From Chrysomallon squamiferum (lineage: Eukaryota; Animalia; Mollusca): a DNA stretch of 64,000 bases. How positions within the stretch are numbered: position 1 is the stretch's first letter; every line of letters begins with the position of its first letter. Made by a program: the position numbers and the translations under genes. The notes beneath the pieces are model-generated. The model ran no database searches and was not told the DNA's origin. It saw only the letters and a program-made list of their open reading frames with translations. The stretch lies in NCBI GenBank assembly GCA_012295275.1, contig CM022670.1:25916001-25980000 (forward strand). The letters run 5' to 3'. Below, piece after piece: positions 24,004 to 56,517 of this stretch.

Positions 24004-24028
24004 ATGAATAGCTTTATGCTATCACAAG
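24004..24028 (+). CDS. Receptor A candidate first coding mini-exon (MNSFMLSQ)
   Basis: ATG at 24004, donor AAG|GTATGT (phase 1); joins in frame to the acceptor at 24421-24422; follows TATA/Inr-like motifs. Confidence 0.45.
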
Positions 24029-24532
24029 GTATGTTTTATCAATAACTGAGTTTTTACAAATAAAATACAGTGATATGCCATACTCTTCTTTAATAGCATA
24101 TGATCTGATATGGTATGATCTGCTACATGTTAAGCTATGCTATGAGGTATGCTAAGCAATGACATATAATGCGATATGTAATGTTATGATATGTGCTATG
24201 TGCTATGTGCTATGATATGCTCTATGCTAAGCAATAACATAAGATGTGACATATGATATGCTATGTGCTGTACTCTATATGTGATAATATTATGATCTGT
24301 GAAGTGACATGATGTAATATGATTCATTACATGAAAGTATATAATAAAATGTAATCCTGTATTATATAATAGCATGTGACATACTGCACTACTGAGTGTA
24401 ATGCATTACAGTGTAATTTCAGATATTTATGAAATGATTGAAGTGCAGAGCTTTATCTGGCTCATCATATTTAGTGTTTCACTGCAACTTACTCAGGCTG
24501 GAAATTTCCCTGACAAATATGGAGGTAAGACA

Positions 24533-24598
<66 letters not shown>

Positions 24599-25997
24599 AA
24601 CACACACATACAAACACACAATACACATACACACACACACGCACGCACACAACACACACACACATGCACACTCACTCAAATACATCCATTCAATCACATG
24701 CAGATGCACACAACCTGTGTAAAATATTTTTAATTCTCTAAACAGAGAAATACACACAACTTTTTCTCTGCTCACCCATTTTTCACACTGATGTTTACTA
24801 ACATAAACATTATTGCTTGCATAATTTCTATAGCCCATTAGTTTATATGTCTTTTCTTATTTGTCTCAAACTTCATTGCAGCTGTTTCACCAGCAGATCC
24901 ATTCATTTACATTGGAGAGAATCTGACTCTGCTGTGCAATATGACAGCGAGAAACACCCATGCGTCATCAAATCAGATGATGTTCAAAAAAGACCGTGAG
25001 CTACTGGATACAACTTACATCACAAGACTGAGTCCACGTGTTATCCTGCTTCAGTTTCCTATCACTTCTCTACAAGATGAAGGAGAATACTGGTGTTATT
25101 TCATCAACGAAACTTCTGAACTTTTCATTGGATTTCAGAAAGTTCGAGTTGAATGTAAGGCTTATATATATATATATATTTAAATGTTATTATATGTTCA
25201 TGATATCCCACGTTTTATGAATTTGCACACTTTTCTGGTACATTCTTTTAAATTTATTTACTTTTTTCGGAATTCTATTTTGTTTTCACTTTTATGAATA
25301 TCAGCCAAAAACAGATAATAATATAAGCACATATAATTAATTAACAGAAATTTTCTTTATTCTTTTTTTTAAAATTAAATATATGCATGGGTGTGTCTGT
25401 ATGTGTCTATATATACCGAGATATAGATATATTTTGACACATACCTCTAGATCCTTTGGAGCCTATCAGATCTGTAGAGTGCAGATATGCTGGTGAAGAA
25501 ACTTTGTTTTGTAACTGGACAGCTGTTCAGTACAATCACAGTGACATCATTAACACTTCTCTTCAGTACAGAATTGTCTATGACCCAAGGTAAATAAATA
25601 CACAGTTCACACTAGGATACTCTATATCATCACACAAATACACAATCATAACTTGGATTCTTTATCTCACAAACACAGATGCACATAAATACAAAATACG
25701 CACTTGGATACTTTATCTGATACAAACAAATACACATAAACTACACAATTCACACTTGTATGCTTTGTCTCATACACACAAATACACATCACATTTGGAT
25801 ACTTTATCTCATACACACAAACATCCATAAATACACAATTCACACTTGGATACATTCTCTGATATACGCAAATCACTTAAATACTAATTAAACATACAGA
25901 AACACATATACAAATATTCAAATACATTCTCTTATATACACTTTCATACAAATTAAACACTACAGGTATAATACACAAGACCACAAGCACACCCACC

Positions 25998-26059
<62 letters not shown>

Positions 26060-27363
26060 GAGGCATACTAACATTTGATATCACAGTGGTCATGAATGTT
26101 AAAACAAAATCTTTGTTATCACATAAATGTAGGTTTATGTTTTTGTTCAGTTTTGGACAGGGGAATTGGATGGCATGCAAGACCAGTTCTGTGAACTCGT
26201 GTTTCTGGCAGCAACAAGACTTACTCCCCTTCAATGACATCAACATGGTTATCACAACCAGGAACACATTTACTGGTGAATTTGTGAAATCTCAGCAGTT
26301 TAACATCACACTGAAAGATCACAGTAAGTGATGCTTGCTTTATATTTCATTTTATTAATAATTTTTGTCTCATAATTCTTATGTATATATTTTTTTTTTC
26401 TTACTCATAATTTATTGAATTTCATTGACTATTTATACATACATACCTATATACACATACATACATGTGTACATACATACATCTACACATGTGTATATAC
26501 ATCCATACATATGCATACATATGTGAATCTGTGTGTGTTTGTATACATGTGTGTATGTAAGTGAGTAAGTGTGTATGTTTGTGTGTGTGTGTAATTAATA
26601 ACTAACATATTTTGATGTTTCAGTTCAGCCCTATTCTGTGATGCTGTTGAGAGTGACACAAGTTGACAGCAGGTGTCTAACTCTGAACTGGAGTGTAGTC
26701 CCTGATGAAAACACATACCTGTACAAAGTACAGATCACATCTAACTGGGATGATGATGTACAGGTATAACGACCAGCGTGAAGTAAATTATCACATATAC
26801 AGAAAATGTGTCAGTACAGTAAATAATCAAACTTGATGATTTCTTTATTAAAAACATAACACGCACACTCACACACACACAGAGAGATACCAACACACAG
26901 ACAGACAGGCAGACAGACAGACAGACATACACACACACACTCACACACACATACACATATAAACGCTAATAAACCTTTCTGTTTTATCATTCAAATATCC
27001 ATAGTTTGGTTATTTCATTTCAAAATCAGTGATCTCAGTTAGATCATTTCAAAATGTGCATAAATTTAATTAGAGAGGAAGAAGAGATATTTTACAGTGT
27101 TTTTAATGTGTATGTGTATATGTGTGTGTATGTGTAGGTGTGCTTTTGTATGTGTATGTGTACGTGGATGTGTGAGTATGCACATCTGAGTGTTTTAAAC
27201 AATACACGATTAAAATCAATTAATAGCAAAATAATATAAATAAAATAAAATAAAATAATAATTATTACATTTATTTCGTAACAAATAAAATTCTTATTTC
27301 ATAAAATTGATAAATAAACTTTCTTTCACTTTTTTATTTTTTATTTATTTATTTTTTTTTTTT

Positions 27364-27423
<60 letters not shown>

Positions 27424-30298
27424 AAAAGGAATTTAAAACCGAAAACAAATATTTCAACACATGTGAGCTGATTCCATACACTAAATATGAGATACGTGTC
27501 AGACGCATAGTGCAGAAATCAGGGCACTCGATAGGATGGTGGAGTGACCCAGCCATCACCAGTGTCACTTCCAACCAGTCAGGTATGTATCCCAAACAGT
27601 CCCGAACAGTTCGTTTGTTCACAAACTGCACGCAGTGATTAATACAATCCTCTAAAATGAAACGTTATCAGGCATCTGCAGATTCGATAGGAATCTGTGG
27701 ATATGAAACCTGACTGGTTTTGGTTAGAAACACAAAAATAAGGATTGAGCTTAGAACTTAACATGTTGGAAAATAATATTATTAATTTTATCCTAATATT
27801 TGCGTGTATATTTGAGTGTGTGAGCATGAGTCAAATGTTTTCATTGGATAGTTGAGGGGTTGTGAATGTGTGAGAGTTTTTGTATTGAAGATTCTGTATG
27901 TAAATATATATGTATGTTCATGTGTATATGTGTGTGTTGGATATGTGTGTATATGCAAGTGGTGAATCTGTGTGTGTGTTTGTTCAGTAACAAGTTCGGT
28001 ATTATCTCCTTTTTCATACTTAGCACTTTTTTTAATTTTTTTTATAAAGTTCTATATGTCTGGCATTTGGCATTATTTGATACCTACATGTATATATATA
28101 AAAATAATAATAATAATAATAAAAAGAAAATAACCACATCTGACCTCTTTATTACTGATCAAAGTTGTTCAAATAGCAGTCTCTTTAGACACATTGTAAG
28201 TAACTTATTTCTGTTTTTAACAGCTCCTGTTAAAACTCCACATTCTTGTCATGGTTGTTTTACATTCACTGATGATGGCCAAGTCAAAGTTTATTTTCAG
28301 GTAATCTTTTAAACATAATATAATAGACTAAATAAATCATTAATCAGCACGAGTCATAAAGCATGAATATTAGAAATAGTTAAAGATCGATAAACTGCAC
28401 TGACCAAACATAGCATATTTGAGTTCTACATTTCGAGGATTTAAAATAATATATAAATGTTTTAGATTAATGCAAAAAAACAACAACATCAAACTTGTAA
28501 GAGAATTAAATGATCTCTTTCTGCTGATATAGTCTGATAATTCATTGAAAAAAAAAGAAAGGAAAACTATATTTATATATATTTATAATTTAGATATTGT
28601 TAAGCTTTTTGCTTGTTTAAATTAAGGTTTTAATAACTACTTATGAAAGAATAAAATAAACAATTTTTATTATTTGCAAAAAAAAAAATTAATCCGAAAC
28701 ATGTTTTTATTTTTAGAAAGGGGGAGGTTTGTTGTCACCTCCAGAAGCAGAAGCAAGGTGAAGGTCAGGCCACAGCAATTTAATAAAAAAAATTAAAAAA
28801 AGCAGCTAACTTATGAAAATATATAATAAACTTTGTGTATTTTCAGAGATTAAGAAAACAAGACTGGTACGGCCCAGAACTAAGGTACGTTGTTAACATA
28901 ACTGACACCGGGAAGAGAGAAACATACACGTATGTCCTTTCTGCTTCCTCGGACACACTGACCACTCACAGAACTGACCATTCTCTTTCTGTGGACATTT
29001 ACACCCTCAACACAGTGGGAGTATCTGAGAAATCAACAAGTTTGTTCATTCCTGGAAAAGACAGAGGTAAAAATACTTAGAAACTTGAAATGTTTTTATT
29101 TTCTAGCTTTTAATTTTAACTACTGGGTAAAATAAAATAAAAAAATAAAATAAAAAAACAAAATATTTCAACAGAAAAGATGTGAAATAATTGCATTTTT
29201 TTTTTTCAAAAGATATTTAGTTTTAATTTTAAATTTTAAACAGAATCACCTCTGAAGTATTTCTCTTTTTAAATTCTAAGTTCTATTTATCCAAAGGTAA
29301 TTTAAAGAATTTTTATTCATGAACAAAACAGATGTGAAATGTCATATTTGTTCTCATGTAAACTTTAGTGGACAAAGGTACAGTAATAAAAATCATGATA
29401 ACAACAGTAGTAATAATAATAATACAAATAATAATACAATAATAATAATAATAAATAATAATAAAATTAATAACAATAACAATATAATAATAATGATAAT
29501 AATAATAATAATAATAAATAACAACAACAAGAACAAATAAATAAATAAATAACAGTAACTTCTGTTTATTCCAAGCACTGACACCACCAGACCACATTGT
29601 AGTGGAGCTGGTGAGGAGAACAGAAAATGAAAACATTTATCACTTGACTTGGAAAGCAAAACATTCACTGGACAACCTCAGCTACACCGTCTTCTGGTGT
29701 CAGCATGAACAGCACCAAACCCAGTGTTCAGTATGTCTTACCACTACTGCTACTGCTACTACTACTGCTTCTACTACTACATCTACTGCTACTACTACTG
29801 CTTCTACTACTACTGCTACTACTCCTGCTACTACTACCACTGCTACTGCTACTACTGCTACTACCACTATTATCACTGCTACGACTGCTACTACTACTAT
29901 CACTGCTACTGTTACTACTACTACTGCTACTACAACTTTTATTACTCAAATACTATTACTACTACTTCTGCTTTTTCTACCACTACTAAAACTTCTACTT
30001 CTACTACTACTACTATTACTACTACTGCTACCATTAATACTTCTATTATGACTACTGCTATTTTTATTACCACTACTACTTCTACTACTTCTATTACTAC
30101 TAATACTACTCTTACTACTAATACTCTGTGGGTGTGTGTGGGTGTGTTGGTGTGTGTGTGTGTGTGTGTGTGTGTGTTGGTGTGTGGGTGTGTGGGTGTG
30201 TTGGTGTGTCTATATTTTTATGTGTGAATGTAGTACTGAATGTAGGAAAATGTGTGTACAGAATCTTTTCTATGACATGGTTCTCTATTTGTATATGC

Positions 30299-30346
<48 letters not shown>

Positions 30347-32896
30347 ATACAAAGGTGATTCTTGGGCATTTCCCCCCTGGATATTTCCCCCAGTCAATCC
30401 CCCCTATCATTTTCCCCCTGGTCATTTTCCCCTAGGTCATTCCTCCTGTGACAGTTCCCCACTGCCTACCATGCCAAGGTTAATTGATCCCTTGTACGGA
30501 TTAACTGGATATAAAAAGATAATTGTATATAATATAAATTGTTTATTTGAACATTACATATTGCATGCAGTTACATACTCCTTTGGACACATTTTACATC
30601 TGGAGATTGCGAGCAACACCACGGAGGAAGTCCTGGTGATCTCTGTTGCCATTGTCTGTGACCAGAGCCTGAAGCCCCTGGGTGATAAACAAACAAAACC
30701 AAGAATAATTTATCCGTTTTCATTATTCCCAAATTTAAGCAATGTTTGGCCCCTTCAAAATCCTTATTCATGACTCAGACTATAAGCCAGGATAGTTGAC
30801 AGTTAAAACAGGTAGGCAGGGGGAATTGTCATGGGGGAAATATCTGGAGGGAAGATGCCCTGACACCATGTAGATAGATAGATAGATAGATATAAAACTT
30901 GGACAGAAAGATATATAAATATAGATATATACATCACATATATAAACAAACAATTATGTATTTAAACAGGACACACTACACTGGAAAGAGTTTATCTTTA
31001 AGAAATATGAAGAATACATCCAAGTAAAGAACATCAATTTTCAAATGATTCTTTTTGGAATGTCTGTTGAGAGGAGGGACAATACAGGTCAAATTGTCAG
31101 CAGTGGTATCCAATGGCAACCATGTGTGTACGATGCCACCAGAGGTAAGAGTTTGCAGTGAGATCATTTTCACTTATCATTTTGGGTAGAAGTGAGCTAG
31201 AAAAAGACAAAGAAAATTATTGTAGAATCTTTTTTATTATTTACAATTTTTCATTATTTATAAAAGGTAAACATGTTTTCAAGTTAACATATCCCAAATT
31301 GTAGTATATTTTATTTTATTTTTATTTTATTTTTATATTTGGTCATTTAATTTATTTATTTAATCATTCATTCATTCATTCATTCATTCATTCATTCAAA
31401 CTGCAGATCCACTGCCTCCAAAGAAAGTCCACTTTGTTGACCAATGGTCAGCCAACAGTCTTATTTTGGCCTGGACAAAGCCTTTCTGTGCTGAAACATC
31501 CGCCATCCTGTACTTCATCCTCACCTACTGCAAGGCTGATGGCGTTGATGCTGATGTGCAGTGCTCTGAACCAGCCAGGGTGAGAAATATCTCCAGTGAT
31601 GTCACCATCTACAGCATTGGCAACTTGGAAGATGGTTTTGTTTATAAAGCACACCTGCAGTCAGCATCCAAACACAGTGTCAGTGTGCAAAGTAACTCTG
31701 TCTCAAAAAGGGTGACAAGTAAGTATTCACCGTGTCACTAATGTTTAGAAAATGTATAAGCGAAACAATAGTGACAAATAAGTATTCATTGTGTCACTAA
31801 TGTTTAGAAAGTTTAACTGAAATAATAGTGACAAGTAAGTTTACACTCTACCCAATGTTTAGAAAATGTATAACTGAAAAAATAGAGACAAATATGTACT
31901 GTGTCACCAATGTTTAGAATGTGTCACTGATGTTTAGAATATGTCACTAATATTTATAAAGTGTAGTACTGAAATAATAGTGACAAATATTTATAGTGTC
32001 ACTAATGTTTGTAAAATGTATAACAGAAATAAGAGTGACAAGTAAGAATACACAGTGTCACTAATGTTATAATATGTATAAAATATATAGCTGAAATAAG
32101 AGTGACCAGTATTTATAGTGTCACTAATGTTTAAAAAATTGTTAAACCAAAATAATAGTCACAAATAAGTATACACAGTGTCACTAATGTTATAAAATGT
32201 ATAACTGAAATAAGAGTGACAAGTAAGTATATACAGTGTCACTAATGCTATAAAATGTATAGCAGAAATAATAGGACATATAAATATACAGAATGTTACT
32301 AATTTATAAAATGTATAACTGAAATGATAGTGACAAGTATGTATAAACAGTGTCACTAATGTCAATAATGTTATAAAATGCATTAATGAAATAATAGTGA
32401 CCAGTAAATAAGTACATAGCATTAATAATGTTTGTAATATGTTTTAGAATAACATATGTGAAGAAAAAGAAAAGCTTTGTTTATAATATATAACTTATTT
32501 CCTGAGGTAAATTACATACATATATATATATGTTGTAGTGGCATTATATGTAATATTATGCATAAAATGAGCTAGTTAAACATTTACTAGTTAAAAAGAT
32601 TATTTTGGAAATAAACAAAAAAGGTAGTGATATAAATATGCTTTAATTTTATTTATTTATTTATTGACTTATTTTTCTATAAGTATTATCATTTCTTTCA
32701 AAACTGTTCTTTAACTTCATCATTATCATTATGATAGGTATTAATAATATTGAAGTCATTATCATTTTTATTACTGTCTGATTGTTATCACTACTGCTAT
32801 CATTGTTGTTGTTGTTATTATTAAAAAGGCCCACTCTGTTCTTTGTTGCATGCAGTGTAAACCTATTTCTGTTATGATGACGACCATCATCACCAC

Positions 32897-32933
<37 letters not shown>

Positions 32934-35900
32934 GTTATATCATTATTATTATCATCATCTTCTTCATTATTAAATTATTGTTGTTGTTGTTGTTGTTGTT
33001 GAGAAGGGCAATTTACAGTCACCATACTGTTTGTAGCAGTCAGCAAAATTGTATTTCTGTCAATAATTGTTTTCAGATTCCAGTAATTCCAAAGTAAAAA
33101 TTTATATATACTTCATTCTACTTCTGATCATTCCATTGTTACTGATTATCATTTATCTGTGGTGAGTTTTTTGTTTTTTCTAAATCTGCCTCCAAACAGG
33201 TTTATTTCCCAGAAAGTACTGTCTGAAAATTAAAAATAACATGTTACATAGTAAAAATTTAAAACAGTAACAGTAATAACAAAATAAAGAATTCATAACA
33301 CCAATCTGTAGCAAAATAAACAAAAATTAATAATATAAATTTATTGAAAAAATAAAAGAGTCATAAGTATATACATATGTAATAATAACAATGAAAGTAA
33401 TAAACTGCAATAAAAAATAATAAAGTACATGTATTATAAAACAAAAATAAAAAGTAAAAAAAATCAAATGAAAGGAGGCAGATATTTTAGATGTGGATTT
33501 TCTTTAATGATTAAATTTTCTGCGTACTAATGCTAACATCATGGGTTGAATAAATGCCTTTACTTTAATATCTTATTCTCCTACTGGGCTGTACAGTATT
33601 ACTTGCATAATTACACAGATGTCATGTTTTTACTGTTTTCTTCCATACGGTACAAACCCTGCACATCATTTATGGTCTAAATATTTTGGTTAACATGTCA
33701 CATCACAAATTTTGTCTACAGTTTTTTATTGTTTCATTTACTGATAATAACTTCAGACCTAAACATTTTGGATAACATGTCACATCACAAATTTTTCTAC
33801 AGTTTTTTATTGTTTCATTTACTAATAATAACTTCAGACCATTTACTGTCTAACTATTTCAGTTAACATATTACAGAACACATGTTGTCTGTATATTTTT
33901 ACTGATAAATCCTGCAGGTCTAAAGATTTTTGTTAACATCTTACAACATAGATTCGTATGTATGTTTTTAACAAGTAGTTTATATAGTAATAATTCATGC
34001 AGACTATGTTTTTAAAGATTTGAGTTATCATGCTACAACATTTATTTTGTATATATAATGTTTTACTGACTGTTTTACTTAATAATAAACTTTTTATATT
34101 CTCTTTCTAAATATTTTTTTTAACATATTACATTTATTTTGTATATATATATATATATATACATTTTTGCCGAGTGTTTCACTTACTGATAATAACTTCA
34201 GTCTGCTTGTATTCTATTTCTAAATATTTTTTAACATTATACAACATTTATTTGTCAATGGATTTTTATTTCAGTGTTTCTTACTGACAACCTCTGCAGA
34301 TTTTATAAATATTTCGGTTGAAGTGTACCCATGGTGATATAAATAAACAGTCAAATAAAATTCTTTATACTTCCATGTTATTATTTTATGATACTGGCTG
34401 ACCAACCTTGCCTCAAAACAAAAGTGTGACAGTAAAATAACAGTCACAAAGTGTCTGAAGTGTACTGCTTCATCACTGGGAGTCATTAGGTCATCCAGCT
34501 GTATTTCTTTTCCAAACACTAGATGAAACTTTAGAGCTGTTGGTCTGCTTATATGTAATGATTTCATGTTTGCAGAATTTTGTTTTTGTTACACTGATGT
34601 TTTAGACCTTTAATATGACACTGTTTTTAGTTTTTGTTAATGCTGGAGGGCAAAGAAAAAAAAGTAAAAGTAAATAAAAGACAAAAACCAACAAGAAAAA
34701 AACAAGAAGAAAAACCAAGCAAAACAACTTGGAAGTATGCAGAATGTATTTTGACTGTTTCTTCATATCCCAATTAGTACAGTTTATAGGATATTAAACT
34801 CTCTCTGTCACACATTAATACTGATTACTTTGAATTATTAGATTACTGTCAAGTAAAATTAAACATCTTAATTTATCTAAATAATTTTAAAGTCTCATTA
34901 ATGATTTAAAATATTGTCATTTATTACTGTTTTATCCATTTATAAACTTTATTTTACTTTTGTTTTAAATTTTAACTTGACTTATTTCTAAATATATACT
35001 GTTTTATTTATTCTATTATTTCTGTGTTTCTGTTTATACATTATTACTTTTTCATGTTCTATTTCACAGATTGATTGGTTTATTTACTTTAATTTTGTTT
35101 TCCAGCAAAAGATATAAATTATGTGAGAAATTTCAAATAAAATATCCTGATCGAAAACAGGTAAACATAATATATTAAAATGTATCTACCTACAATTTAC
35201 TAGTTAAATCAAGTCATGTAATTACTAAACACCTGGACTGCGTGGTTTGTGAATATGAAAATGAATTGTGTTAAATACATGCCATCATTTAGCTTCTTCA
35301 GTTGTGTTAATCAATAAACAGTAATTCCTTTCCTGCATACAAACATATTACAGTTAAAGTAATAAGATACAGTTAAATAAGAAAGAAAATAAATACTGTT
35401 ATTAAATTATGAAGTCTCCAATTGGTCAGTAAATGTTCGTATGCTTTTAACTTCGCTAAGCACGTTTTGAAATTAAATACACTGTGCTGAATTAACATTA
35501 CTGAGTCATTATTTAAATTGAAATAACAGCAAAGCCTTAAATTTTAATTTAATCCAGTATGGAGATCTGCTCTTTAATGCTCATAATAATAGCAGAACAA
35601 ATTAAAAATGTTATTTTCTTCTTTTTTCTTCTTTTTTTTCTTTTTATCACTGTGTATTAATACTCCAGCCATGTTGAACTAATTAATATATTCTGTTTAA
35701 TTCCACAGCACAACAGAAAGACGGTCACTCTAAATCAGGAACATGTGAAACTTTACGAAAGCAACAGAGATACTGAAACAACAGATACAACCTGCAAGGA
35801 TGAAGAAGTGGGGCTGCTGGAAGGTGCAGCTGAAAAACCAGAGAAGGAATGCACCATGTCTGTAGCACAAGCTGAACCTGGCACAAGACAGAACAGTCAA

Positions 35901-37577: not shown

Positions 37578-37941
37578 GTAATTTTGCTCTTTTGTTTTCA
37601 TAATAATAGATTTCAAATAATAGAAGAATTTAGAAGGTATGAAGAACAAACAACATGTCAGATGAAAACAGAATTAGTGTTTCATAAGTTCAAACTTCAA
37701 CAGTTGAAATACTGTAAATGAACACTTAGCAAACGTAGCTGAGTTCACAAAAACCAGCTTTTTCACTTCATTTCTTTTTTTAAGTACTTGTTAACAACAA
37801 CTAAAAAGTACAATAAAACAAAACAACAAAGAAACAAGAATTGAAACATCAAGAAAAAAAAAAAAAAATCCAAAACAAATTAATTATAATAGAATAGCCG
37901 ATTTAATTAAAAACGTAAAAAAAATAATAAAATATATATAT

Positions 37942-43195: not shown

Positions 43196-43633
43196 TTACT
43201 GGATGATGCTGGTCACAGAAACGTAAGGACCAATGGGTGAAATCGTTACATCATCGCAATGACTCGCCTCTGACGCTGGAAGAATCACATCTTGTTGAGG
43301 ACTACTTTCTGAAACTTTATCACCATCATCGTCATGAGGGGAGGCAACTGATGTAGAATTAGCCTGATTCTGCGCAGCATCGACACAACCAGAATGTTTC
43401 ACTTCAACATTTCTGACATCTTCATCAGTTACTGAGTTTCCTGATGTATTTCCTAGGTCTTGCATTGTTATATATTGTGATACTGGCTGATCAGAATTCT
43501 GAAAAGGACAATGAACAGTGACAACCTTCCTGCTGAGGTCAACACACAGCTCTTCTTCGTCTTCCTTGGTGCAGCAGTTACCATTAGTCAACTGTGAAGA
43601 GAGAAAATCAGCACTACCTCTTCCTGGAACATC
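43196..43633 (-). CDS. Receptor B terminal cytoplasmic exon
   Basis: Acidic tail with SQYITMQ and terminal GPYVSVTSIIQ*. Confidence 0.82.
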   Translation of the reverse strand, partial: DVPGRGSADFLSSQLTNGNCCTKEDEEELCVDLSRKVVTVHCPFQNSDQPVSQYITMQDLGNTSGNSVTDEDVRNVEVKHSGCVDAAQNQANSTSVASPHDDDGDKVSESSPQQDVILPASEASHCDDVTISPIGPYVSVTSIIQ

Positions 43634-44185
43634 CTGCTCTCCGAAACAACAAATCAAAAAGGTTCTATTAATAAAGCAAAATATGACATTCAGAGATATC
43701 TTAATATAACTAAAACTATGCATAAACACACACACACACACACATACACATTCCAACATACATATATACATACATTCATACACACATATAAACATAAATA
43801 CACACACAGACACTCATGCACACGCTCTCACATACACACACACTGAGAAACACTCTTACTCACTTCAATGGCAGTAACCTGTGTTGTTCTGCTGGTGTCA
43901 TTGGCAGTCTCAGATCTGTAACTGAGGAGATGTGCTGGACTGCCTGGCTCACTGTCATCTATGTTAACATGTCCATTTATACGTGTCTGAAATGTGACAT
44001 TTTTATCAGCTCTTAGATCTGTCAGCTCTTACAATACTGTGCAAGTATCTGTCTGTCTATCTACCTATCTGTCCATCTATATATATTTCTATCTACATCT
44101 AAATATATATATATTTATAATATATATAATCTCTCACTCTCTCTCTCACATATGCATGTGTATATATATGCGTGCTTATATATAT

Positions 44186-44234
<49 letters not shown>

Positions 44235-47200: not shown

Positions 47201-48404
47201 TGAAAAAAGAAAATAAATCAAATATAAAAGTGAACAAAATATCTATTTAACGTTTTTAATCAGTAATTTTATCTTCAGTATGAACAGTAATGAGAATTGA
47301 ACCCTGCTTATATGTGACAATCTATCCTTTTTTCAACTAGTGAGAATAGATCTTTTTATGATGAAACTTCATTTTCAAAAATATTTCTGTTTATAATATT
47401 GGTGGAAAAAACGATTCAGAGATTATTGCAAAAACAAAATAATAAAAAATACAATATTGTCATTTATTTATCTTTCTTGAATTATTAAGAATAGAAAAGA
47501 TGAAAAATGAAAATAAAAACCTTATACATTGCTTTTAAAACATATACTGAATATTTAAATAAATAACTAAAATAAAATAATATGAATAACAATAATGAAA
47601 CAAAAATAAAAATAACTAAAATAAAAATAACTAAATAAAAAAATACCTGAAGGTAAACATAAAACTAAAATATTGCTTACACTGAATAGAAACCAATTAT
47701 ATTCAACAAACACATTAATATTAAAAAACAAACAAACAAACAAACAAATAAATAATAAAAATAAAATTAAAATCATAACAATAATAACAGATACTAGCAC
47801 CCACAATTTCATCGTGGAACAGTAAAAGTCATTTTTTCTCCAATGACAGAGATCGTTTTACCCCAGAAAGCCACACAAAAATATGCTTCTTTCTTTATTC
47901 CAGCAAAAGTTGCGACTGATAATGTTCTCCAATTTTTCATCAAAAACATTGTTTTGAGAAAATGCTGATTTTGGCAGCTCATGCATTGAAAATACACAGA
48001 TTACAAGCATTTATCAGATAAATAAAGATTTCCAGATTCATCAGTTCAAAAACCTTTTTTTTTTTTTTTTTTTTTTTTTTTGGGAAACAGCTACAACAAT
48101 AAAGAAATCAAAAATAAGTAAATAAAAATGCACTGAAAGGTGAATATACCTAAGCACTGTGAATCCTTGCAGTAATAAATGATGTATTTCTGTATGAAAA
48201 CTTTCTCATCTGACAAGCACCAGTTACTTGACCACCTAACAATGAACTCTGATCCATTTTCAATTACTGTTACACCTTTTGGAGGTGACTGTGGTTCTGC
48301 AGTTAACAAAATAAATCAGCATTAAAATAAACAACATCTAAATTTATACACCATTCTTTATAAATAACTAAAAAACAAAGTAAAATAAATAAATAAATAA
48401 ATAA

Positions 48405-48457
<53 letters not shown>

Positions 48458-49026
48458 GTAATAGTAATAGTAATAGTAATAGTAATAGTAATAATAATAA
48501 TAATAATAATAATCAGAAGGGGAATGCATTAAGCTGTATAAATCAATTTATCATCTGTTGTCATTATTTTTATACTTTTCGTAATTCCTCTAGAAAAATA
48601 CAAGTTCCCCCATTTGCCAAAAAACTCGACCCCCTCTTGAATAATCTAAAATGATGTCTGCTTTCTTAATTTAAATATAAATTTTACATGTTGATTAAAA
48701 ATGTTATTATCCGATGTTTAGGAAGTATTATAAATAAATAAAACAGTTTTATGAAAAGGTAGATAACTCTTCCCTGGTAGACTTTAACTATAAATCTCTG
48801 ACGTACTTTTGTTTTTGATGGTGACACAAGATTTCCAAATTACACCACTGCTGACACTGCCAGCCTCGGTTGACAGGCCGAACTTGTACTGCTCTACAGA
48901 GTTCACCGTTACAGGTAACAACGTTCTGTTCACACTCCCCACCAGTTTCCATTTTATTTGTATCTGTAGGTAAATGATTACATTTCTGAAGGGTCAAAAA
49001 ATGGCTGCCAAGTCTCTATGGCTACC

Positions 49027-49106
<80 letters not shown>

Positions 49107-52100
49107 CCATCCAGAAAAGTAAAATCATATTATTCCAAAATCTTTTCAAATTAAAACAAGGACAAAACAAAATTCAAGATCATGGTGTGTTGTAAGCCCT
49201 GTACATAAAATGCTTTCAGTTAAACTGATGAGAAGATGTTGTAAATACCTGACAAGGTAGTTCCAGTCCTCGACACCAGTATACAGTGTATGAGAAAACT
49301 GAAGGTGAATGTGTGGTCCACAGAGCAAAGACTTTGGCTTCATCTTTATCAATCTCAATCCAAAATCGTTTGGGGGCATTAGGTTCTAAAATAGCAGCCA
49401 AAACACATGTGTAGATACACATACACACATATAAAACAACCTTAAAATTTATTAATTAAAGATTTGTTAAATTTTCTGATAATTCTGATATGTTGTTCTT
49501 CAGTCAAGGATGGTTAAAAAAAAAAAAAAAATGTATGTAGCCATAGATGTATTTTTTGAAATTAAAATCTGAAATCTTCATTCCATAATTATAAAAAAAT
49601 TCTTATTTGTCTTTGACATTTCATTTAAAGTTTAAAAGCAACAGCTTAAACTGCTGTATATTTTTTTTTTTTTAAATCATCCAACATTTACAATTTACTT
49701 TTCTTCATTTTTTTATTTTCTATTTTTTTTTTTAAATGTTCTGTAACAATCATTTTGTAATAATACATTGACATTCTGACATTATACATGGGACATTTTG
49801 CTCGAAGGTCTGAAATCACATTACAGAGGTATAACCAATTTGTAAAATTATTCTGTATTTTAACTTGCCTTTGCCTTTTTCAGGAATAATGATTTCAGAG
49901 TAATCTGTTGACATTCCTACAGACGTCTGTGCAAATATTCTGACCTGATGAGATATGTTACACATTAACAACGGAAGTGTGCATGATGTTGTATCTCCAC
50001 TGACATTCCTCGTCTGATTATCATATTCAATCCTGTACCCGGTTATTATTCCATTTTTCACGAAATCATCCTGACAAATAAAAGAAGATTTTTAAAACAA
50101 ATAATATGTGAAATATTTTTAAAAAAAAATATTTGCTTAAACCTTACACTGTGCAACAACTAATTAATAATAACACAACATTTGTTATTATTATTATTGT
50201 TATTATATTATTATTATTACTATTATTATTATTATCATTGTTATTGTTATTATAATTATTATTATTATCTTTAAATGTGAGTGTGTATGCATGTGGGTGT
50301 CTGTGTGTATGATGTGTGTGATAAATAACATTTCAAAGAAAGGACTGTGGTCATTTCAGAATATATTGTCACCATATTTAAGCATATAGATCATATTTAA
50401 TTTTCTTTCATGAAATATATAGTGAACTTAACAATGATTAATAATTATAAATACATTCTTACACTGTTTATATTCCTATTTATATAAATAAATATGTCTG
50501 CTCTCATGACGTTTTAAAAAAAAGCAAGCATCTGTTTTCATTATCCATTGCAACATAAATTAAAACTTCAAGCATGTTTGTTCTCAGTATCCATGGTAAC
50601 ATAAACACTAAGACTTCAAGCAAGTGTCTACTGATGGTATCTATGGCAACATACCTGCCAAAAGACAGTTACATTCTGAAGGCCTGGCCGCTGGTCACAG
50701 TACCCTTGTTGTGTGAAACCACCCACAGACACAAGTGGGCCACTGCCTGGAACTACATCAGACAATTAATTAATTAGCTGTTTGAAATATTCTTCTTCGT
50801 CTTCTTTTTCTTCTTTTTTGTCAAATATTATCTCATTTTAAATATAAAAATAAATAGCCTTAAAAAAAAAAAAAAAACTGATGTGGTAGACAAGAGCAAA
50901 ATAATACAATATTGCCATGTTTACAAGGACAATTTTAATTTTTATACGTCTTCGTACACAAACAACATCTTTGGCATACTAACCCAGAACGTGAATTAAC
51001 AGCATGTTGGTTTGTTAGCAGGTTAGTGAGAAAGAAGAGAGGATGGCTGGATGACTAATGTTTATCAATACATAATCAGAATCCTGGAACAACACAATAC
51101 ACCATTTTCATTCACTTTTATTTTTTAACTTCTCTTGCTGGAGTTCACTCCCTTTTGGTCTCACACCAAACAGAAGTCTTAGATAATAACAAATAAAAAA
51201 CATTACAAACATTACATTTAACTTTAGGTAACTGCTGATATTCAAGTGCAATTGTAAGATAAACAGGTCAAGTACAAGTATTTACCAAACTCAAAAACTG
51301 ACCATTAAACAGTTTTTAAGGTGGCTATTTAAATAACTCTTGTATCATTCAAACTTAAACCTAATCATTTAAGTTACTCCTGGTAATATATGTCATTCCT
51401 TTATTTGCCACATTTAAAGCCAATGATTTATGCTATTTCTGTATTTGGCAAACTTAAAGCTTATTATTTAAAACATTCCAGTATTTACTAATCTTAAAGC
51501 TGAAGAATTAATCAATTCCTGTACCTACCAGACTTTCATCTGTCGCTTTTCAATGTACACCTCTTAGCCTTTTATCAACCTGTCTAATCTATACTTGTAC
51601 AAGTATTTCTCCAAAAGTCAAATACATAAATCAATCCCTGTTAATTTTTCAACCCTCAGATCAATGCTCATTAACCATAAGGAAGACTTCTTATATAAAT
51701 AAAACCAGCATTAACTGGCCTTAAAGGTGATGATTTCAGTAATTCCAGCACTGAAAATTTGTATTATTTAGCAGACAAAATTCATCTTATAAAATATGGA
51801 AATGATGAAACCAAATTACCATGATCAATATTTGCAATTTAAAATTTCGCACTTAAACCATTCTTACCATCTTCTGCTGTAGAAACATCAATGTAGGTTG
51901 CGTTGCTCCAAAAGCCCTTCACTGTAGGCTTGCAGTCAACTGACAGTGTGTAGTGGGTAAAGGGCAGCAGGTTACATACTGTGAATTTTGGATTCTCTTT
52001 TGGCAGTTTATCCAGCAAGCACCTAGCAAAAACAAAAACAAAGACAACTAAAATGATAAATATATATAAACATTTTTTTTTTTTTTTTTTTTTTTTTTTG

Positions 52101-53786
52101 AATTTTATAAACATTACTATAATATTTCTATTATGGGACCAACCTTCCATTTTTCACCTGAAGACAACTTCAGTCTGACACGGAAAATAATACCTCTACT
52201 CTCAATTCTGGAATGTGTCCACGATATCTGAACACATGTACTATTTTTATCAATTTCCTTAACCTCAGAAACACTTTCAGGCTGCACTGAAATAATAAAT
52301 AAAAATATATTACAGTGTACACACACACACAGAAATAAGTATATAGATGTACTGTTGCAAAATAAATTTCATTTCAGAAATTAAAAAATAAAATGGCAGA
52401 ACTATATTGACTTGTTCATGAACTAATTACCTTTAAAATATATTTTAGAAAGTTTTATTTTTTCCTGTGTCAAATAGTAGGTGTATTTACTGTAAAAATA
52501 CATCACCTGTCTTTAAAATTAATACATTATTTTTATTTATTATTTATAAAAAATACTAAAGTGAATTAGTAGTTAAGAATATACAGAAAAAAAAAAAAAA
52601 AAAAAAAAAGAAACCCTGCCACCAAAATGATAAGTTACTCTTTATTTTTATTTTTTATTTTTAGCAGGATGTAATACTTCTTCTGTAACTTCCCCCACAC
52701 AAGGAATCACACTTCCCAGGTTTTGATACATTAGTCAGGGACACTGACTGGAATGGGGTATTGGCAGTCCTACAACCTACTGAGAAGAGATCTGAGCCTG
52801 TAAGCTACAATTTACACCCAAACAACAAATTTGCAAAACATTATAGATGTTTGTGTATGAAAAAAGAAAAATATCTGACAATTTGATTTTAAAAAAAATT
52901 TAGAAATCAGATTTATATTTAGTGAAAGCTTTGAATAATGATTAAATGTTTATCAACACACCATAAAATAACATGGCTGTACTGAGGTTATTAAATGAAT
53001 TGGTTGATTAATAAATCTGTTCAGTCTTTAAAAAAGTTATGCATAAATAGTCAAACAGATAAATAAAATATTTCAAATAAAAACATTTGATGAATACTTC
53101 GACATATAAGATATTTCAAAACTTTTTACTAAAAACCTGTTTCCTTTAAAAACAAAAAAAAAACTAAAAATTTAAATCAGTCATTGGTGGAATCTGAACA
53201 GATCCATCAAACTAGTTTTATTTAAAATATATTCTCCATGATGACTGCAGTCTACCACAGAGCTTTGTTTTTATCAATACACATCAGCTGGTTTACACTG
53301 AGGTGGTGGGTCCCTTTGTGAACCAAATATAACAACTGTTAATGCAAGCCTGACTCAACTTCATTCTTCCTTGCAAGGGGTGTTTGGACTTACCATTGTC
53401 CTTTATTATTACTGTATAAATTTGACTTAAGGATGATGAATTAGTTTTCAGATTTGTTACTGTGATGTTCAAAAGATAAGCAAATTCAGCACGAAAGTTG
53501 TCTTTATTCCAGTAGCAATAATCTTTTCCAGCATCAGGACACAAGCCACTTTAACAAAACAGAAAAGAAAAGCAGTTATTATAATTATTTATTTTTTCAT
53601 TTATTTATCCTGCAATCTCTGTACACAATGATAATGGTAAGATATTTTTGTTCAAAGTTACTTCTTATGTTGCTGATTCAGATCTTAAAAGACTATTTCA
53701 AAATAAACTGTTATCTAACAAACATTTTGTTTTGATGTGTAGTGACAATGAAATCAATAAGCATAAATCTACTACCATCCAGGACA

Positions 53787-53885
<99 letters not shown>

Positions 53886-56517
53886 TGTGTGTTTGTGATT
53901 AGAAAAATAATATTATGATTTTAACATTACAAATGAATTTGCATTAAAAGGCTTTTTACCAATTCTGATAGCTGAATTCTGATATCATTTTCTCCAAGAT
54001 GATTAAATGTGGGTAAATAGTTTATCAGATCAGTTGTTTTAACCTCTTTTTAACAAAAAAATGATGTACATAATTGTTATTATTACCTTCGTTGTGTGTA
54101 TGTAAGATAGGAAACATCAATTTTAACATCATCTTCATGAACATAGTGGCCAATATCCCAGCTGCACCACATTCCTTCATCCCAATTGAAAACCACACAG
54201 CTGATGTTCTTCACAGAATGGGGTGCATCTGAAAACAAAACCCTCAAACGGTGAGATTCAGTCTACAATCAGTTTTCTACAACTTACCCCTTTATTTTGA
54301 GCTATGCCCCTAATCATTATGATAATGCATTCTTAAACATTTTGTAGACAAGCAAATACGGAGACATGTACGCAAACAATAATGTGTTTTAAAAGAGCTC
54401 GTCTTCTAAAAATCCTTTATTACCCACTGAAACAAGTACTTACATTCCACACGAACATCCTGGACACCGACATACTTGTCAGAATCATCATCATCACTGA
54501 CAAAACAGGTGTATGGCCCAGCATCGGTAACTGCTACATTAGTCTTCTTCAGCTGTATGGTTTTAACGTCAACCTTGGTCACATGGTCCGTTATTTTGTG
54601 GTTTTTAAATTCAAAGAACATCATTGATGAGTTGTACTGGTGTTTGCTGTGGTCCTGGAGTGTGCAGTTTAAGGTCAGAGTCTCATTAACAAATATGTAC
54701 GGCTGTGATGGATAAACATCTGCATATGGAAGACGAGAACAGAAATCATTTTCTTTTTTTTTCATTCGTTATAAGTTCTACAGTTTTCACAAATGTTAAT
54801 AGTAACAGATTTCAGAGGTACGTATGCAAAAGATCTAACTTAGGTTTTTATTTATAAACTTCTTGTTCCTGTCCTAAAGTCAGATGCATAAAACATCTTA
54901 ACTAACACTGATAAAGTGTCAGGAAGTCATAATTTTATTTTGAAATATTGAAATAAAATTTTTATAATTACTTATTTTAAAAAAATCAAAAAAAAAAATC
55001 AAAAAAAAATCAAGAAACAAGTCAAACATGTATGCTCTGAATAACTTTTCTGAACTTGTGAAATTATTCCTGACTTAGTTATGATTACCAGGTTTCAGCA
55101 AAGCACACGTCTTTCAAATAACACAAGCTATGGACGTGGTCTCAAACTGAGAATATTACTTATTCCACAAATGGATCTGCAGAATTGCTTTTGAAATAAT
55201 CACAATTTTATAACAACATGTATGGAAAATAAAACAAATAGTAATGGATTATTTTACTCTGCATATCATTAAAAAAAACCTGATAAATTGGTATTTAAGG
55301 TATATTCCCTGAACTATCTGATGTTATAAACTGAATTTTTTTTTTAAATTAAAAGCCACAAATTAGATTGTGAGAGTTATTCTACACATTATCTAAGAAG
55401 TGAGATTTTAACCTCTTCTACTACCATGTTGTCATTTAAAGTGTTTAACTATGGTAGAAATATGTGCTACACATCCTGGATGGATTAGAATTTACTGACA
55501 TGATTCACTGGAAATGTAATGTGATTGCTAAGCTATTCACTATAATGGCAAATGAAATTGTGATCCTTATAGCAGTCACTAAAAGGTTAACTTAGCTTGC
55601 CTTGTACTCCAGCAGCCAGTATAATTTAATGACTTACAGAAACATTAAAATATAAACTGTGATACCAAAGTATATCTTTGATGGCAGAAAGAAAAAGATT
55701 TTAAATAAATTTTGTTTGCTATAAAGTTATTATTTTATTTCTCTTTGCTAGTATTAAAATAGGACGCAGAAATAACAATCTTGAGAGAATGAAATGAGAC
55801 CGACACTTTTTATTTAACCATGACTACATTTTATGTAAAAAAAAAAGAAAGTCATATATTACCTACTTCCAAACACCGTTGATTCGAAATACCCAACAAA
55901 CTCAAAATAACTTCAGAATTAATGGATTAAACTTAAATGGTATTTAATAAAGTTTAAATAAAAATGTAATTAATTGTTTTGTTAAAGTATCTACTCAAAA
56001 CTCTGAATGAAGCTACGACAGAAACAGAAGTCTTTCCTTTTTATGGATATCCATCTTTTGTGGATTGTTACATAATTATTATAACACATCAGAAAGAAAA
56101 ACAAAGCACACAAATCTTGAGGGTTTTTTTTAGTCACCTTTCTCCTGATCTCTCTTATCCTGTGGACTAACACAAATGTACCTATGAAACAGCCAGTTAG
56201 CTTTGATGGCATCATGGCTAGTTCTGTCATTACTAAAAAGTTGTGGTTTTTAAGTCAACACCTACTAAATGTTCCTGCAAAGTGATCCTAAAAGCCAAGC
56301 ACCCATTGTAAGCAATACAGTGCTCACTAGTAGGTGCTAAAGCCAAGACCGCTGACCACTGTCTTAGAGTTTTAGATGTATTTAACGAGTAGTTAGCATA
56401 TTTCTTTCTACTGACAAATGATATTGTTTTTATATACATACTTCCTAATCCTTCAAATGAATAGCCACCATCAGATCCAAGGCATGTTAACAATACACAC
56501 AAGATGAGCTGTATCAT
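43196..56517 (-). CDS. Receptor B: second gp130/Domeless-like class I cytokine receptor (apparent 1-bp frameshift in exon 6)
   Basis: Exons (-): 56517-56442, 54719-54444, 54228-54087, 53548-53394, 52286-52144, 52022-51868, 50752-50655, 50070-49869, 49385-49249, 48963-48807, 48296-48150, 47062-46922, 46020-45933, 44878-44812, 43986-43864, 43633-43196. Sum is 2545 nt (3n+1). Motifs: CVVFNWDEGMWCSW, GFWSNA, SSGVIWKSC, TM, YITM and YVSV. Confidence 0.85.
43864..43986 (-). CDS. Receptor B cytoplasmic exon
   Basis: 123 nt open frame between TTTCAG acceptor and GTGAGT donor; phase 0-0. Confidence 0.7.
44812..44878 (-). CDS. Receptor B juxtamembrane Box1-like exon
   Basis: CRKKKCRAKMHFNYPNHTKRNE; phase 2-0. 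Confidence 0.78.
45933..46020 (-). CDS. Receptor B transmembrane exon
   Basis: LIGISAFCVPVSILIII; phase 1-2. Confidence 0.83.
46243..46913. repeat. Minisatellite, 27-28-bp unit (ACTGCTGATGATATTTACACCTACATAC)
   Basis: More than 20 tandem copies beside the receptor B donor at 46920-46921. Confidence 0.92.
46922..47062 (-). CDS. Receptor B last FN3, second half
   Basis: YTFTNLTVGTQYRFQLEAVAAAGAGPRS; classic FN3 C-terminal half. Confidence 0.87.
47085..47223. repeat. Inverted repeat / hairpin with ~48-bp arms
   Basis: ATTTGATTTATTTTCTTTTTTCAGAAAATATTGTCATGAAAA pairs with TTTTCATGACAATATTTTCTGAAAAAAGAAAATAAATCAAAT. Confidence 0.85.
48150..48296 (-). CDS. Receptor B last FN3, first half
   Basis: PQSPPKGV...IVRW...YIIYYC; phase 1-1. 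Confidence 0.85.
48807..48963 (-). CDS. Receptor B FN3 exon
   Basis: IKWK...YKFGLS...SSGVIWKSC; phase 0-1. Confidence 0.85.
49249..49385 (-). CDS. Receptor B FN3 exon
   Basis: ...SYTVYWC...PCQ; phase 1-0. Confidence 0.85.
49869..50070 (-). CDS. Receptor B FN3 exon (GC donor)
   Basis: KNGIITGYRIEY...AQTSVGMS; ends AAG|GCAAGT. Confidence 0.82.
50655..50752 (-). CDS. Receptor B FN3 exon
   Basis: VPGSGP...NVTVFWQ; phase 1-0. Confidence 0.82.
51868..52022 (-). CDS. Receptor B CBM FN3-2, second half (WSxWS-like), with apparent extra base
   Basis: CNLLPFTHYTLSVDC...GFWSNA; 155 nt versus 154 nt in paralog A. Confidence 0.78.
52144..52286 (-). CDS. Receptor B CBM FN3-2, first half
   Basis: VQPESV...CVQISW...FRVR; phase 1-0. 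Confidence 0.8.
52692..52800. mobile_element. Degenerate MetaSINE-like relic in a receptor B intron
   Basis: CCCACACAAGGAATCACAC..TTTGATAC..AGTC..CACTGACTGGAA pattern. Confidence 0.4.
53394..53548 (-). CDS. Receptor B CBM exon with second Cys pair
   Basis: LCPDAGKDYCYW; phase 2-1. Confidence 0.85.
54087..54228 (-). CDS. Receptor B CBM exon with C-x10-C-x-W
   Basis: VKNISCVVFNWDEGMWCSW; phase 1-2. Confidence 0.87.
54444..54719 (-). CDS. Receptor B Ig-like exon
   Basis: VYPSQPYIFVNETLTLNC...TDAGPYTC...QDVRVE; aligns with the receptor A Ig exon. Confidence 0.88.
56442..56517 (-). CDS. Receptor B signal-peptide exon
   Basis: MIQLILCVLLTCLGSDGG; acceptor 56560-56561 upstream; donor A|GTATGT, phase 1. 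Confidence 0.8.

What the first reader, a model, noticed from the sequence alone, without database searches (positions are those of the whole stretch)
24004..56517. Tail-to-tail pair of divergent gp130-type class I cytokine receptors in an invertebrate
Seen: two multi-exon genes with the same Ig-CBM-3xFN3-TM-tail layout and four CBM cysteines. Both have degenerate WSxWS motifs (GWWSDP / GFWSNA) and a Dome-like SSGxxWxxC, but resemble each other only at motif level. Known: this is the gp130/G-CSFR architecture. Insects have Domeless plus the adjacent antagonist latran/eye transformer, and vertebrate IL6ST and IL31RA are neighbours. Inference: an old local duplication may have produced a two-chain JAK/STAT receptor system (heterodimer or receptor/modulator). 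Its helical-cytokine ligand is not known to me in lophotrochozoans.
Basis: partly seen in the sequence, partly recalled or inferred. Interest (0 to 1): 0.85.

Follow-up and report, generated by a model that had tools for sequence, protein, structure and literature searches.

The report
Two gp130-type cytokine receptors in snail
Two neighbouring snail genes encode distantly related receptors of the gp130/Domeless type that likely signal through JAK/STAT; this receptor type is already known in molluscs, and whether the two work together is untested.

Summary
Gene A (+, 24004/24434-36161, about 845 aa) and gene B (-, 56517-43196, about 847 aa) converge, and each encodes signal-Ig-CBM-3xFN3-TM-tail. 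Exon profiles, a family profile, a folded orthologue and the Atlas all point to gp130-type class I cytokine receptors, not adhesion molecules. RNA contigs splice three predicted introns of B; A was not tested with RNA. Corrections: the genes align over the whole ectodomain (25%, E 1e-54) with matching introns, not only at motifs. The host is a gastropod close to Gigantopelta aegis, which has one orthologue of each gene plus a third, more conserved paralogue on the same contig. Both tails are long, with one juxtamembrane proline and Y-V/I motifs but no YxxQ, so neither resembles Latran. The tree does not resolve A and B as sisters, and nothing tests heterodimerisation. B carries an unresolved extra base at exon 5/6. 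Molluscan gp130/Domeless-like receptors are already annotated and published, and second copies occur in scallop and Elysia. Verdict: new members of a known kind; the two-chain system remains an open guess.

The parts
24004..24028 (+). Gene A exon 1 (possible start, 8 codons; unverified)
   Evidence: ATG and GT donor in frame; the orthologue does not need it, alternative ATG at 24434
24423..24524 (+). Gene A exon 2, signal peptide
   Evidence: hydrophobic stretch; aligns to the P0066 N-terminus
24882..25154 (+). Gene A exon 3, Ig domain D1
   Evidence: Pfam ig E 4e-4, Lep_receptor_Ig E 0.043; 52% to P0066
25451..25589 (+). Gene A exon 4, CBM first half, C-x9-CxW
   Evidence: 65% to P0066
26151..26323 (+). 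Gene A exon 5, CBM second cysteine pair
26624..26763 (+). Gene A exon 6, CBM second FN3, first half
27429..27582 (+). Gene A exon 7, GWWSDP (degenerate WSxWS)
   Evidence: profile with B exon 6 hits gp130 first
28224..28300 (+). Gene A exon 8, FN3 D4 first part
   Evidence: 61% to P0066
28847..29066 (+). Gene A exon 9, FN3 D4 second part
29576..29730 (+). Gene A exon 10, FN3 D5 first part
30970..31144 (+). Gene A exon 11, FN3 D5 second part, SSGxxWxxC
31407..31718 (+). Gene A exon 12, FN3 D6
   Evidence: Pfam fn3 E 1.8e-7
33077..33161 (+). Gene A exon 13, transmembrane helix
   Evidence: hydropathy 3.1 over 19 aa; phase matches the B TM exon
35106..35160 (+). Gene A exon 14, basic juxtamembrane stretch with YP (candidate JAK site)
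35709..36161 (+). Gene A exon 15, tail ending in DYVTV; stop 36159-36161
   Evidence: weak likeness to the orthologue's tail; no RNA test
56442..56517 (-). Gene B exon 1, ATG and signal peptide
   Evidence: aligns to P0058 from residue 2
54444..54719 (-). Gene B exon 2, Ig domain D1
   Evidence: Pfam ig E 8e-5, Lep_receptor_Ig E 0.003; 51% to P0058
54087..54228 (-). Gene B exon 3, CBM first half, C-x10-CxW
53394..53548 (-). Gene B exon 4, CBM second cysteine pair
   Evidence: 68% to P0058
52144..52286 (-). Gene B exon 5, CBM second FN3, first half
   Evidence: aligns to P0058 up to the donor at 52144
51868..52022 (-). Gene B exon 6, GFWSNA; one base too many at its start relative to the orthologue
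   Evidence: in-frame alternative 52158/52047 scored; not tested with reads
50655..50752 (-). Gene B exon 7, FN3 D4 first part
   Evidence: spliced to exon 8 in RNA run X3
49869..50070 (-). Gene B exon 8, FN3 D4 second part, GC donor
   Evidence: Pfam fn3 E 5e-7; spliced to exon 9 in X2
49249..49385 (-). Gene B exon 9, FN3 D5 first part
   Evidence: spliced to exon 10 in X2 and X3
48807..48963 (-). Gene B exon 10, FN3 D5 second part, SSGxxWxxC
48150..48296 (-). Gene B exon 11, FN3 D6 first half
46922..47062 (-). Gene B exon 12, FN3 D6 second half
   Evidence: Pfam fn3 E 6e-8
45933..46020 (-). Gene B exon 13, transmembrane helix
   Evidence: hydropathy 2.8
44812..44878 (-). Gene B exon 14, basic juxtamembrane stretch with YP
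43864..43986 (-). Gene B exon 15, tail (acceptor 43986 fits the orthologue best; 44025 is also in frame)
   Evidence: 49% to P0058 685-720, E 6e-4; not among the RNA pieces listed
43196..43633 (-). Gene B exon 16, tail with YITM and YVSV; stop 43196-43198
   Evidence: covered in part by RNA contigs of X1, X2, X3; no gap in X5
37941..40804 (.). 2,864-base element with about 630-base terminal inverted repeats between the two genes (likely a DNA transposon)
   Evidence: 94.5% over 633 columns; no Pfam hit in its frames
61559..63655 (+). Start of the neighbouring SMARCA5 gene (head-to-head with B; runs off the window)
   Evidence: exon 63050-63229 is 95% identical to XP_041358454.1; first coding exon at 61559

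Best explanation
Genes A and B are two anciently duplicated gp130/Domeless-type class I cytokine receptor chains, each likely a signalling receptor in its own right that would bind a secreted ligand and fire JAK/STAT, rather than two halves of one receptor. Shown: the architecture, the family, paralogy, one orthologue of each in G. aegis, and splicing of B. Inferred from the family: ligand binds the CBM (with help from the Ig domain), dimerises the chains, a JAK held at the juxtamembrane Y-P motif phosphorylates tail tyrosines, and SH2 proteins (a STAT5/6-type STAT, SHP2 or SOCS) dock at the Y-V/I motifs. Inferred from the comparisons: A and B are fast-evolving extra copies beside a more conserved third receptor, and probably differ in ligand or in where they are expressed.
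For: Family: the WSxWS-exon profile ranks gp130 first, and 18 of its first 20 PDB rows are gp130, G-CSFR or IL-31RA; all 8 of 8 rows for the first CBM-exon profile are cytokine receptors, though at E 0.17-2. The B orthologue P0058 hits gp130 over residues 32-659, E 4e-16. The 29-sequence family profile hits gp130 at E 2e-55, ahead of the best non-cytokine receptor at E 9e-26. The AlphaFold model of the A orthologue (pLDDT mostly 80-95 over the ectodomain) has cytokine receptors at ranks 1-12 in Foldseek. All 10 Atlas rows shown are tall class I receptors at 0.98. Signalling: a proline at tail position 14 in both, kept in both orthologues; Domeless needs only one proline for its JAK (PMC4751595, section read). 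Across 13 molluscan tails [D/G]-Y-[V/I] occurs 16 times against 1.6 in shuffles and Y-[V/I] 35 times against 14.5 (0 of 1000 shuffles each), while YxxQ is not enriched (9 against 6.1); A has one DYV, B has two Y-[V/I]. Invertebrate STATs group with STAT5/6 (PMC13203501, passage). Separate roles: A and B are 25% alike, no closer than either is to Mytilus (27%, 30%), whereas the third G. aegis receptor is 34-36% like mussel, scallop and abalone receptors.
Against: No YxxQ or YxxL and no PxP Box 1 in either tail. The tails are 168 and about 207 aa against 303 and 348 in the orthologues, and B has cysteine at two places where its orthologue has tyrosine, which could mean weakened signalling. The A orthologue alone finds no cytokine receptor by sequence, only a PTP-delta FN3 stretch at E 6e-4. 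The tyrosine patterns were chosen after seeing the sequences (5 tried). The fold is of an orthologue, and its TM-scores are modest (0.32-0.41 by query for ranks 1-11). A has no RNA test. B's exon 5/6 junction is unresolved. Nothing here excludes pairing of A with B or with the third chain. No JAK, STAT or ligand of this organism was examined.
Confidence: 0.55

Rival explanations
1. Combinatorial receptor: A and B pair with each other, or each pairs with the conserved short-tailed third chain, as gp130 pairs with LIFR or OSMR.
For: The linkage is old: orthologues of A and B, the third receptor and SMARCA5 all lie on one 102,884,749-base contig in G. aegis. The third chain has the most conserved ectodomain but a 98-aa tail with no Y-[V/I] motif, while the A and B orthologues have 2 and 4. 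Vertebrate members of this group form heteromers (PMC2914635, passage).
Against: Adjacency is what a local duplication gives whether or not the products meet. The genes are convergent, so they share no promoter. The third chain's model ends in a run of asparagines and may be truncated. Co-expression was not shown. Gene order in G. aegis could not be read.
Confidence: 0.2
2. One chain is a decoy or dominant-negative modulator, as Latran/Eye transformer is for Domeless.
For: No YxxQ; shortened tails and lost tyrosines. A has two YxxN motifs, a feature noted for Et/Lat (PMC4751595). A is the longest branch. Short-tailed receptors do exist in molluscs (scallop XP_021374516.1, 16-aa tail).
Against: Both keep three FN3 domains, which Latran lacks (PMC2914635), all four CBM cysteines, and terminal Y-V-x-V motifs. 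The YxxN motifs are absent from the A orthologue (sequence). YxxQ is not a family feature in molluscs.
Confidence: 0.15
3. Gene B is broken in this genome: a one-base frameshift in the CBM would give a short secreted product or none.
For: The sites that match the orthologue (donor 52144, acceptor 52022) are out of frame by one base. The in-frame alternative with fair splice scores (52158/52047) replaces a conserved tryptophan with a hydrophobic, intron-like stretch.
Against: All other exons are open and 38-68% identical to the orthologue; downstream exons are spliced in RNA; the extra base sits in a two-G run, which fits an assembly slip.
Confidence: 0.07
4. Generic Ig/FN3 adhesion molecules or phosphatase-like ectodomains.
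For: The Ig exon alone hits titin, contactin and IgLON proteins; the A orthologue alone hits PTP-delta.
Against: CBM-specific hits, the family profile, the fold and the Atlas all favour cytokine receptors. No catalytic domain appears in the tails.
Confidence: 0.02

Closest known systems
Gigantopelta aegis LOC121375475 (XP_041358879.1) and LOC121375965 (XP_041359644.1), 'uncharacterized protein'
   Different: Tails are longer (303, 348 aa) with more tyrosines; no function is annotated; gene order not checked.
Molluscan Domeless / IL6ST-like / LIFR-like / OSMR-like receptors (Mytilus 'DOME', Haliotis asinina XP_067679086.1, scallop, Biomphalaria, Elysia, G. aegis XP_041359437.1)
   Same: Same six-domain ectodomain, degenerate WSxWS, SSGxxW motif, juxtamembrane proline, Y-V/I tail motifs; reported as molluscan 'IL6R' in PMC13203501.
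   Different: A and B are only 24-30% identical to them, lack the conserved C-terminal FY...TEL motif seen in the bivalve and some pulmonate receptors, and have Y-P where the bivalve and abalone receptors have L-P or M-P.
Vertebrate gp130 (IL6ST) and group 2 chains G-CSFR, IL-31RA, IL-12Rb2, OSMR, LIFR
   Same: Ig-CBM-3xFN3-TM layout; best PDB matches by sequence and fold; CBM introns in phases 1-2-1-0-1.
   Different: No full WSxWS, last CBM cysteine spacing of 7, no PxP Box 1, no YxxQ; ligand unknown.
Drosophila Domeless and Latran/Eye transformer
   Same: Adjacent duplicated class I receptors in a protostome; single-proline JAK site (PMC4751595).
   Different: dome and lat are in tandem, same orientation; Latran lacks FN3 repeats and a STAT site (PMC2914635). 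Here the genes converge and both are full length. No Domeless sequence was compared directly.

Membership tests
Class I cytokine receptor, gp130/Domeless (tall) type | Signal peptide, Ig, CBM, three FN3, one TM helix, non-catalytic tail | tested here: met
   all-beta six-domain model plus TM helix for the A orthologue
Class I cytokine receptor, gp130/Domeless (tall) type | C-x(9-10)-CxW-x(26-32)-C in the first CBM fold (PMC1963337) | tested here: met
   A 9 and 32, B 10 and 26
Class I cytokine receptor, gp130/Domeless (tall) type | 10-15 residues between the third and fourth cysteine (PMC1963337) | tested here: not met
   7 in both
Class I cytokine receptor, gp130/Domeless (tall) type | WSxWS at the end of the second CBM fold | tested here: inconclusive
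   only G-x-W-S is kept; it aligns with the same site of gp130; none of the 24 homologues with letters in that column has the full motif, so degeneracy is family-wide in molluscs
Class I cytokine receptor, gp130/Domeless (tall) type | Best sequence and fold matches are class I receptors | tested here: met
   the exception is the lone A orthologue
Class I cytokine receptor, gp130/Domeless (tall) type | CBM introns in phases 1-2-1-0-1 (recalled for class I; seen in print for class II in PMC8863823) | tested here: met
   A meets it; B meets it if its exon 5/6 intron is read as the orthologue suggests
Class I cytokine receptor, gp130/Domeless (tall) type | Box 1 JAK-binding motif | tested here: inconclusive
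   no PxP near the membrane; a single conserved proline at tail position 14, like the single proline of Domeless
Class I cytokine receptor, gp130/Domeless (tall) type | STAT docking tyrosine of the YxxQ type | tested here: not met
   0 in both tails; YxxV and Y-V/I motifs present; YxxQ not enriched in 13 molluscan tails
Class I cytokine receptor, gp130/Domeless (tall) type | Binds a cytokine and activates JAK/STAT | not testable with these tools
   needs cell assays
Latran/Eye transformer-type short antagonist | No FN3 repeats after the CBM; short tail | tested here: not met
   both have three FN3 domains and tails of 168 and about 207 aa
Heteromeric two-chain receptor (gp130/LIFR type) | The two chains are co-expressed and assemble on one ligand | not tested
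   no RNA test for A; no binding test

The most novel reading that the evidence does not exclude
A snail lineage independently built a combinatorial gp130-like system on one chromosome: a conserved short-tailed common chain binds ligand and JAK, while two fast-evolving long-tailed chains (A and B) pair with it or with each other and supply [D/G]-Y-[V/I] docking sites for a STAT5-type STAT. This would parallel the vertebrate IL-6 family and give three baits for catching the unknown molluscan ligands.
Probability: 0.15. Interest if true: 0.7.

Novelty: new member of a known kind. Interest (0 to 1): 0.36.

Why it matters
The papers read here describe one signalling class I receptor of this type in flies and sea squirts, with multi-chain use in vertebrates (PMC1963337, PMC12284397; passages). 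Three full ectodomain paralogues in G. aegis, two in a scallop and two in Elysia show that molluscs expanded the family, which implies several ligands or chain combinations still to be found. The enrichment of [D/G]-Y-[V/I] rather than YxxQ in molluscan tails is a concrete, testable lead on how their STAT docks. The locus itself is an ordinary paralogue pair until pairing or a ligand is shown.

Tried and rejected
Word-index searches with the Ig-exon and D5-exon profiles found nothing (0 of 273 and 0 of 14 candidates); the HMMER search then found the family, so these blanks reflect divergence. Profiles of the two D5 exons gave no informative PDB hit. A fold of one exon without an alignment was worthless (pLDDT 36). 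A metagenome scan for B exon 6 gave 221 pattern matches and no relative. My first guess of a cephalopod host, from base composition, was dropped. In one search, B exons 11-15 had no listed RNA piece; contigs were thin (depth 2-5), so this says nothing. Run X4 and the small word shares were not used as evidence. A short-tail reading of B (acceptor 44036, early stop) was rejected because the acceptor scores low and exon 15 matches the orthologue in the long frame. Low-scoring in-frame donors 52169 and 52166 were rejected; the 852-aa B model used for BLAST and trees uses 52169 and so lacks about 8 residues there. No third receptor lies in the window: tblastn of six relatives hit only A, B and SMARCA5 exons, apart from one weak stretch at E 0.018, and 114 other frames gave no relevant Pfam hit. 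No complex prediction was run, because these chains usually need ligand to meet and only orthologues were available. No earlier scan findings were found. No whole genome was held, so the rest of this species' receptor set is unseen.
Full report
Check of the observation. I built both gene models by hand from the sequence. Gene A runs on the + strand through 15 GT-AG exons to a stop at 36161 and gives 845 aa without an internal stop. Gene B runs on the - strand from 56517 through 16 exons to 43196 and gives about 847 aa. The stops are 7,034 bases apart, with a 2,864-base element bearing long inverted repeats between them. Each protein has a signal peptide, an Ig domain, a cytokine-binding module with four cysteines, three more FN3 domains, one transmembrane helix and a non-catalytic tail. 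The named motifs are there. All 13 introns of A from exon 2 on have a same-phase partner in B within 4 columns, one of them by my reading; B has 2 more. The tails are unrelated.

Expression. One search found 5 runs holding B's last exon. Laid on 43000-50800 (4 of the 5 runs), RNA contigs join exons 7-8 (X3), 8-9 across the GC-AG intron (X2) and 9-10 (X2, X3) at the predicted sites; run X5, which covers introns, shows none of these joints. Parts of the last exon are covered in X1, X2 and X3. All three RNA runs come from one study and their depth is 2-5. Gene A and B exons 1-6 have no RNA test.

One flaw in B. The donor at 52144 and the acceptor at 52022 match the orthologue residue for residue but leave one base too many. 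An in-frame alternative with fair scores exists (52158/52047) but gives an unlikely stretch. An assembly slip is the simplest reading; it is unproven.

Host and relatives. A SMARCA5 exon beside B is 95% identical to XP_041358454.1, then 81% to XP_046560346.1; most named hits near the top are gastropods and bivalves. A HMMER search with the two Ig exons gave 269 hits, 150 listed; 37 and 36 of the 150 match the assembled A and B at E below 1e-5. I looked up 20 of them: 17 carry names, all molluscs. The best are Gigantopelta aegis XP_041358879.1 for A (46.6%) and XP_041359644.1 for B (44.8%). That G. aegis is a peltospirid vent snail is recalled. The window is thus a related but different snail. 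In Solemya and in two abalones (species assigned by accession range) the sampled receptor and SMARCA5 lie on contigs of different length, so that linkage was not seen outside this lineage; the sample is incomplete.

Family. Two-sequence exon profiles already pick gp130, G-CSFR, IL-31RA and IL-23R, gp130, IL-12Rb2, IL-13Ra2 (weak E-values). The B orthologue hits gp130 along the whole ectodomain (E 4e-16), and all 10 Atlas rows shown are tall class I receptors. The A orthologue alone finds only a PTP-delta FN3 stretch, but its model has class I receptors at Foldseek ranks 1-12, with contactin-2 first appearing at rank 14 with a lower TM-score. The 29-sequence profile gives gp130 E 2e-55, OSMR 1e-31, LIFR 3e-30 and PTPRF 9e-26. 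Deviations from the vertebrate definition (PMC1963337, passages): last cysteine spacing of 7, partial WSxWS shared by the molluscan set, no PxP, no YxxQ.

History. In a 22-row tree and a 14-row tree (8 rows dropped: five partial, one long-branch scallop paralogue, one near-copy, one of odd composition) A and B each join their G. aegis orthologue at 100/100, and deeper branches are open. Forcing A and B together is not rejected (AU p 0.38) and not shown. The trees have no Domeless or vertebrate row, hence no root. The third G. aegis receptor is 34-36% identical to mussel, scallop and abalone receptors, A 26-27% and B 28-30%. So the duplication predates the split from G. aegis, and A and B look like fast-evolving extra copies. 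Scallop has a second receptor with a 16-aa tail and Elysia marginata has two.

Mechanism. Shown: architecture, family, paralogy, splicing of B. Inferred from the family: ligand binding at the CBM, dimerisation, JAK activation, tyrosine docking. Both tails place Y-P at position 13-14 after a basic stretch, kept in both orthologues; Domeless binds its JAK through one proline (PMC4751595, section 7 read). A ends in DYVTV and B has YITM and YVSV. In 13 molluscan tails [D/G]-Y-[V/I] occurs 16 times against 1.6 in shuffles and Y-[V/I] 35 against 14.5 (0 of 1000 each), while YxxQ, YxxV and Yxx[VILM] are not significantly enriched (five patterns, chosen after inspection). YxxV is the SHP-2/SOCS3 type in gp130 (PMC1963337), and invertebrate STATs group with STAT5/6 (PMC13203501). 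I therefore think each chain can signal (0.55). Rivals: combinatorial pairing (0.2), a modulator (0.15), a broken B (0.07), an adhesion molecule (0.02). Against my reading: the tails are much shorter than in G. aegis, and B has lost two tyrosines.

What is known. PMC13203501 (passages, section 3.1, supplement passages; its figures were not visible) traces IL6R/gp130-like receptors to molluscs and clusters them with Domeless. PMC11250055 (passages) reports an IL6ST-like transcript induced by Vibrio in abalone haemocytes. PMC2914635 (passages) and PMC4751595 define the Domeless/Latran pair. PMC9334734 (passages) finds one JAK and one STAT in Aplysia. PMC8863823 (passages) gives the 1-2-1-0-1-0 phases for class II receptors; the class I rule is recalled. 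PMC12162339, PMC12284397 and PMC13081863 were seen as passages only. Nine searches listed no paper on a paired or three-member receptor set in a mollusc, or on a molluscan four-helix ligand. Most subscription journals are missing from the library, so this is weak.

Verdict. The feature is real and correctly identified as to family. These are new members of a known kind, with orthologues in RefSeq as uncharacterised proteins. The heterodimer or modulator idea has no direct support, and the Latran version is disfavoured. Interest 0.36; the combinatorial three-chain reading has probability 0.15 and would merit 0.7.

Noticed in passing
window 37941-40804: 2,864-base element with about 630-base terminal inverted repeats (94.5% alike), flanked by TA runs; its internal frames are broken and have no Pfam hit. 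Likely a DNA transposon; family not determined.
   Followed up: partly
window 57416-57720: A strong donor on the - strand near 57416 and an AAAATGGCG motif on the + strand near 57680 suggest a non-coding first exon of gene B and a head-to-head neighbour. Coding-looking frames at 58586-58946 and 59556-59912 (-) have no Pfam hit, so a small gene may lie between B and SMARCA5.
   Followed up: partly
window 49385-49869: GC-AG intron in gene B, confirmed by an RNA contig.
   Followed up: yes
P0207 / P0123 (G. aegis XP_041359437.1, XP_041359439.1): Third receptor with the most conserved ectodomain and the nearest to a full WSxWS, but a 98-aa tail without Y-V/I motifs; its counterpart is not in the window.
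   Followed up: partly
P0234 (Mizuhopecten XP_021374516.1): Second scallop receptor with a full ectodomain and a 16-residue tail: a better candidate for a non-signalling modulator than either gene here.
   Followed up: partly
tails of P0096, P0140, P0145, P0205, P0219, P0236: Bivalve and some pulmonate receptors end in a conserved P-x-x-F/Y-Y motif followed by TEL, absent from A, B, their orthologues and the abalone receptor.
   Followed up: no
window 46250-46900: Minisatellite of about 25-base units in gene B intron 12; a similar degenerate repeat lies at about 31720-32420 in gene A intron 12.
   Followed up: no
window 45943-45944, 48825-48962: Run X5 and RNA contigs differ from the window at several exonic places of gene B, so the gene is polymorphic.
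   Followed up: no
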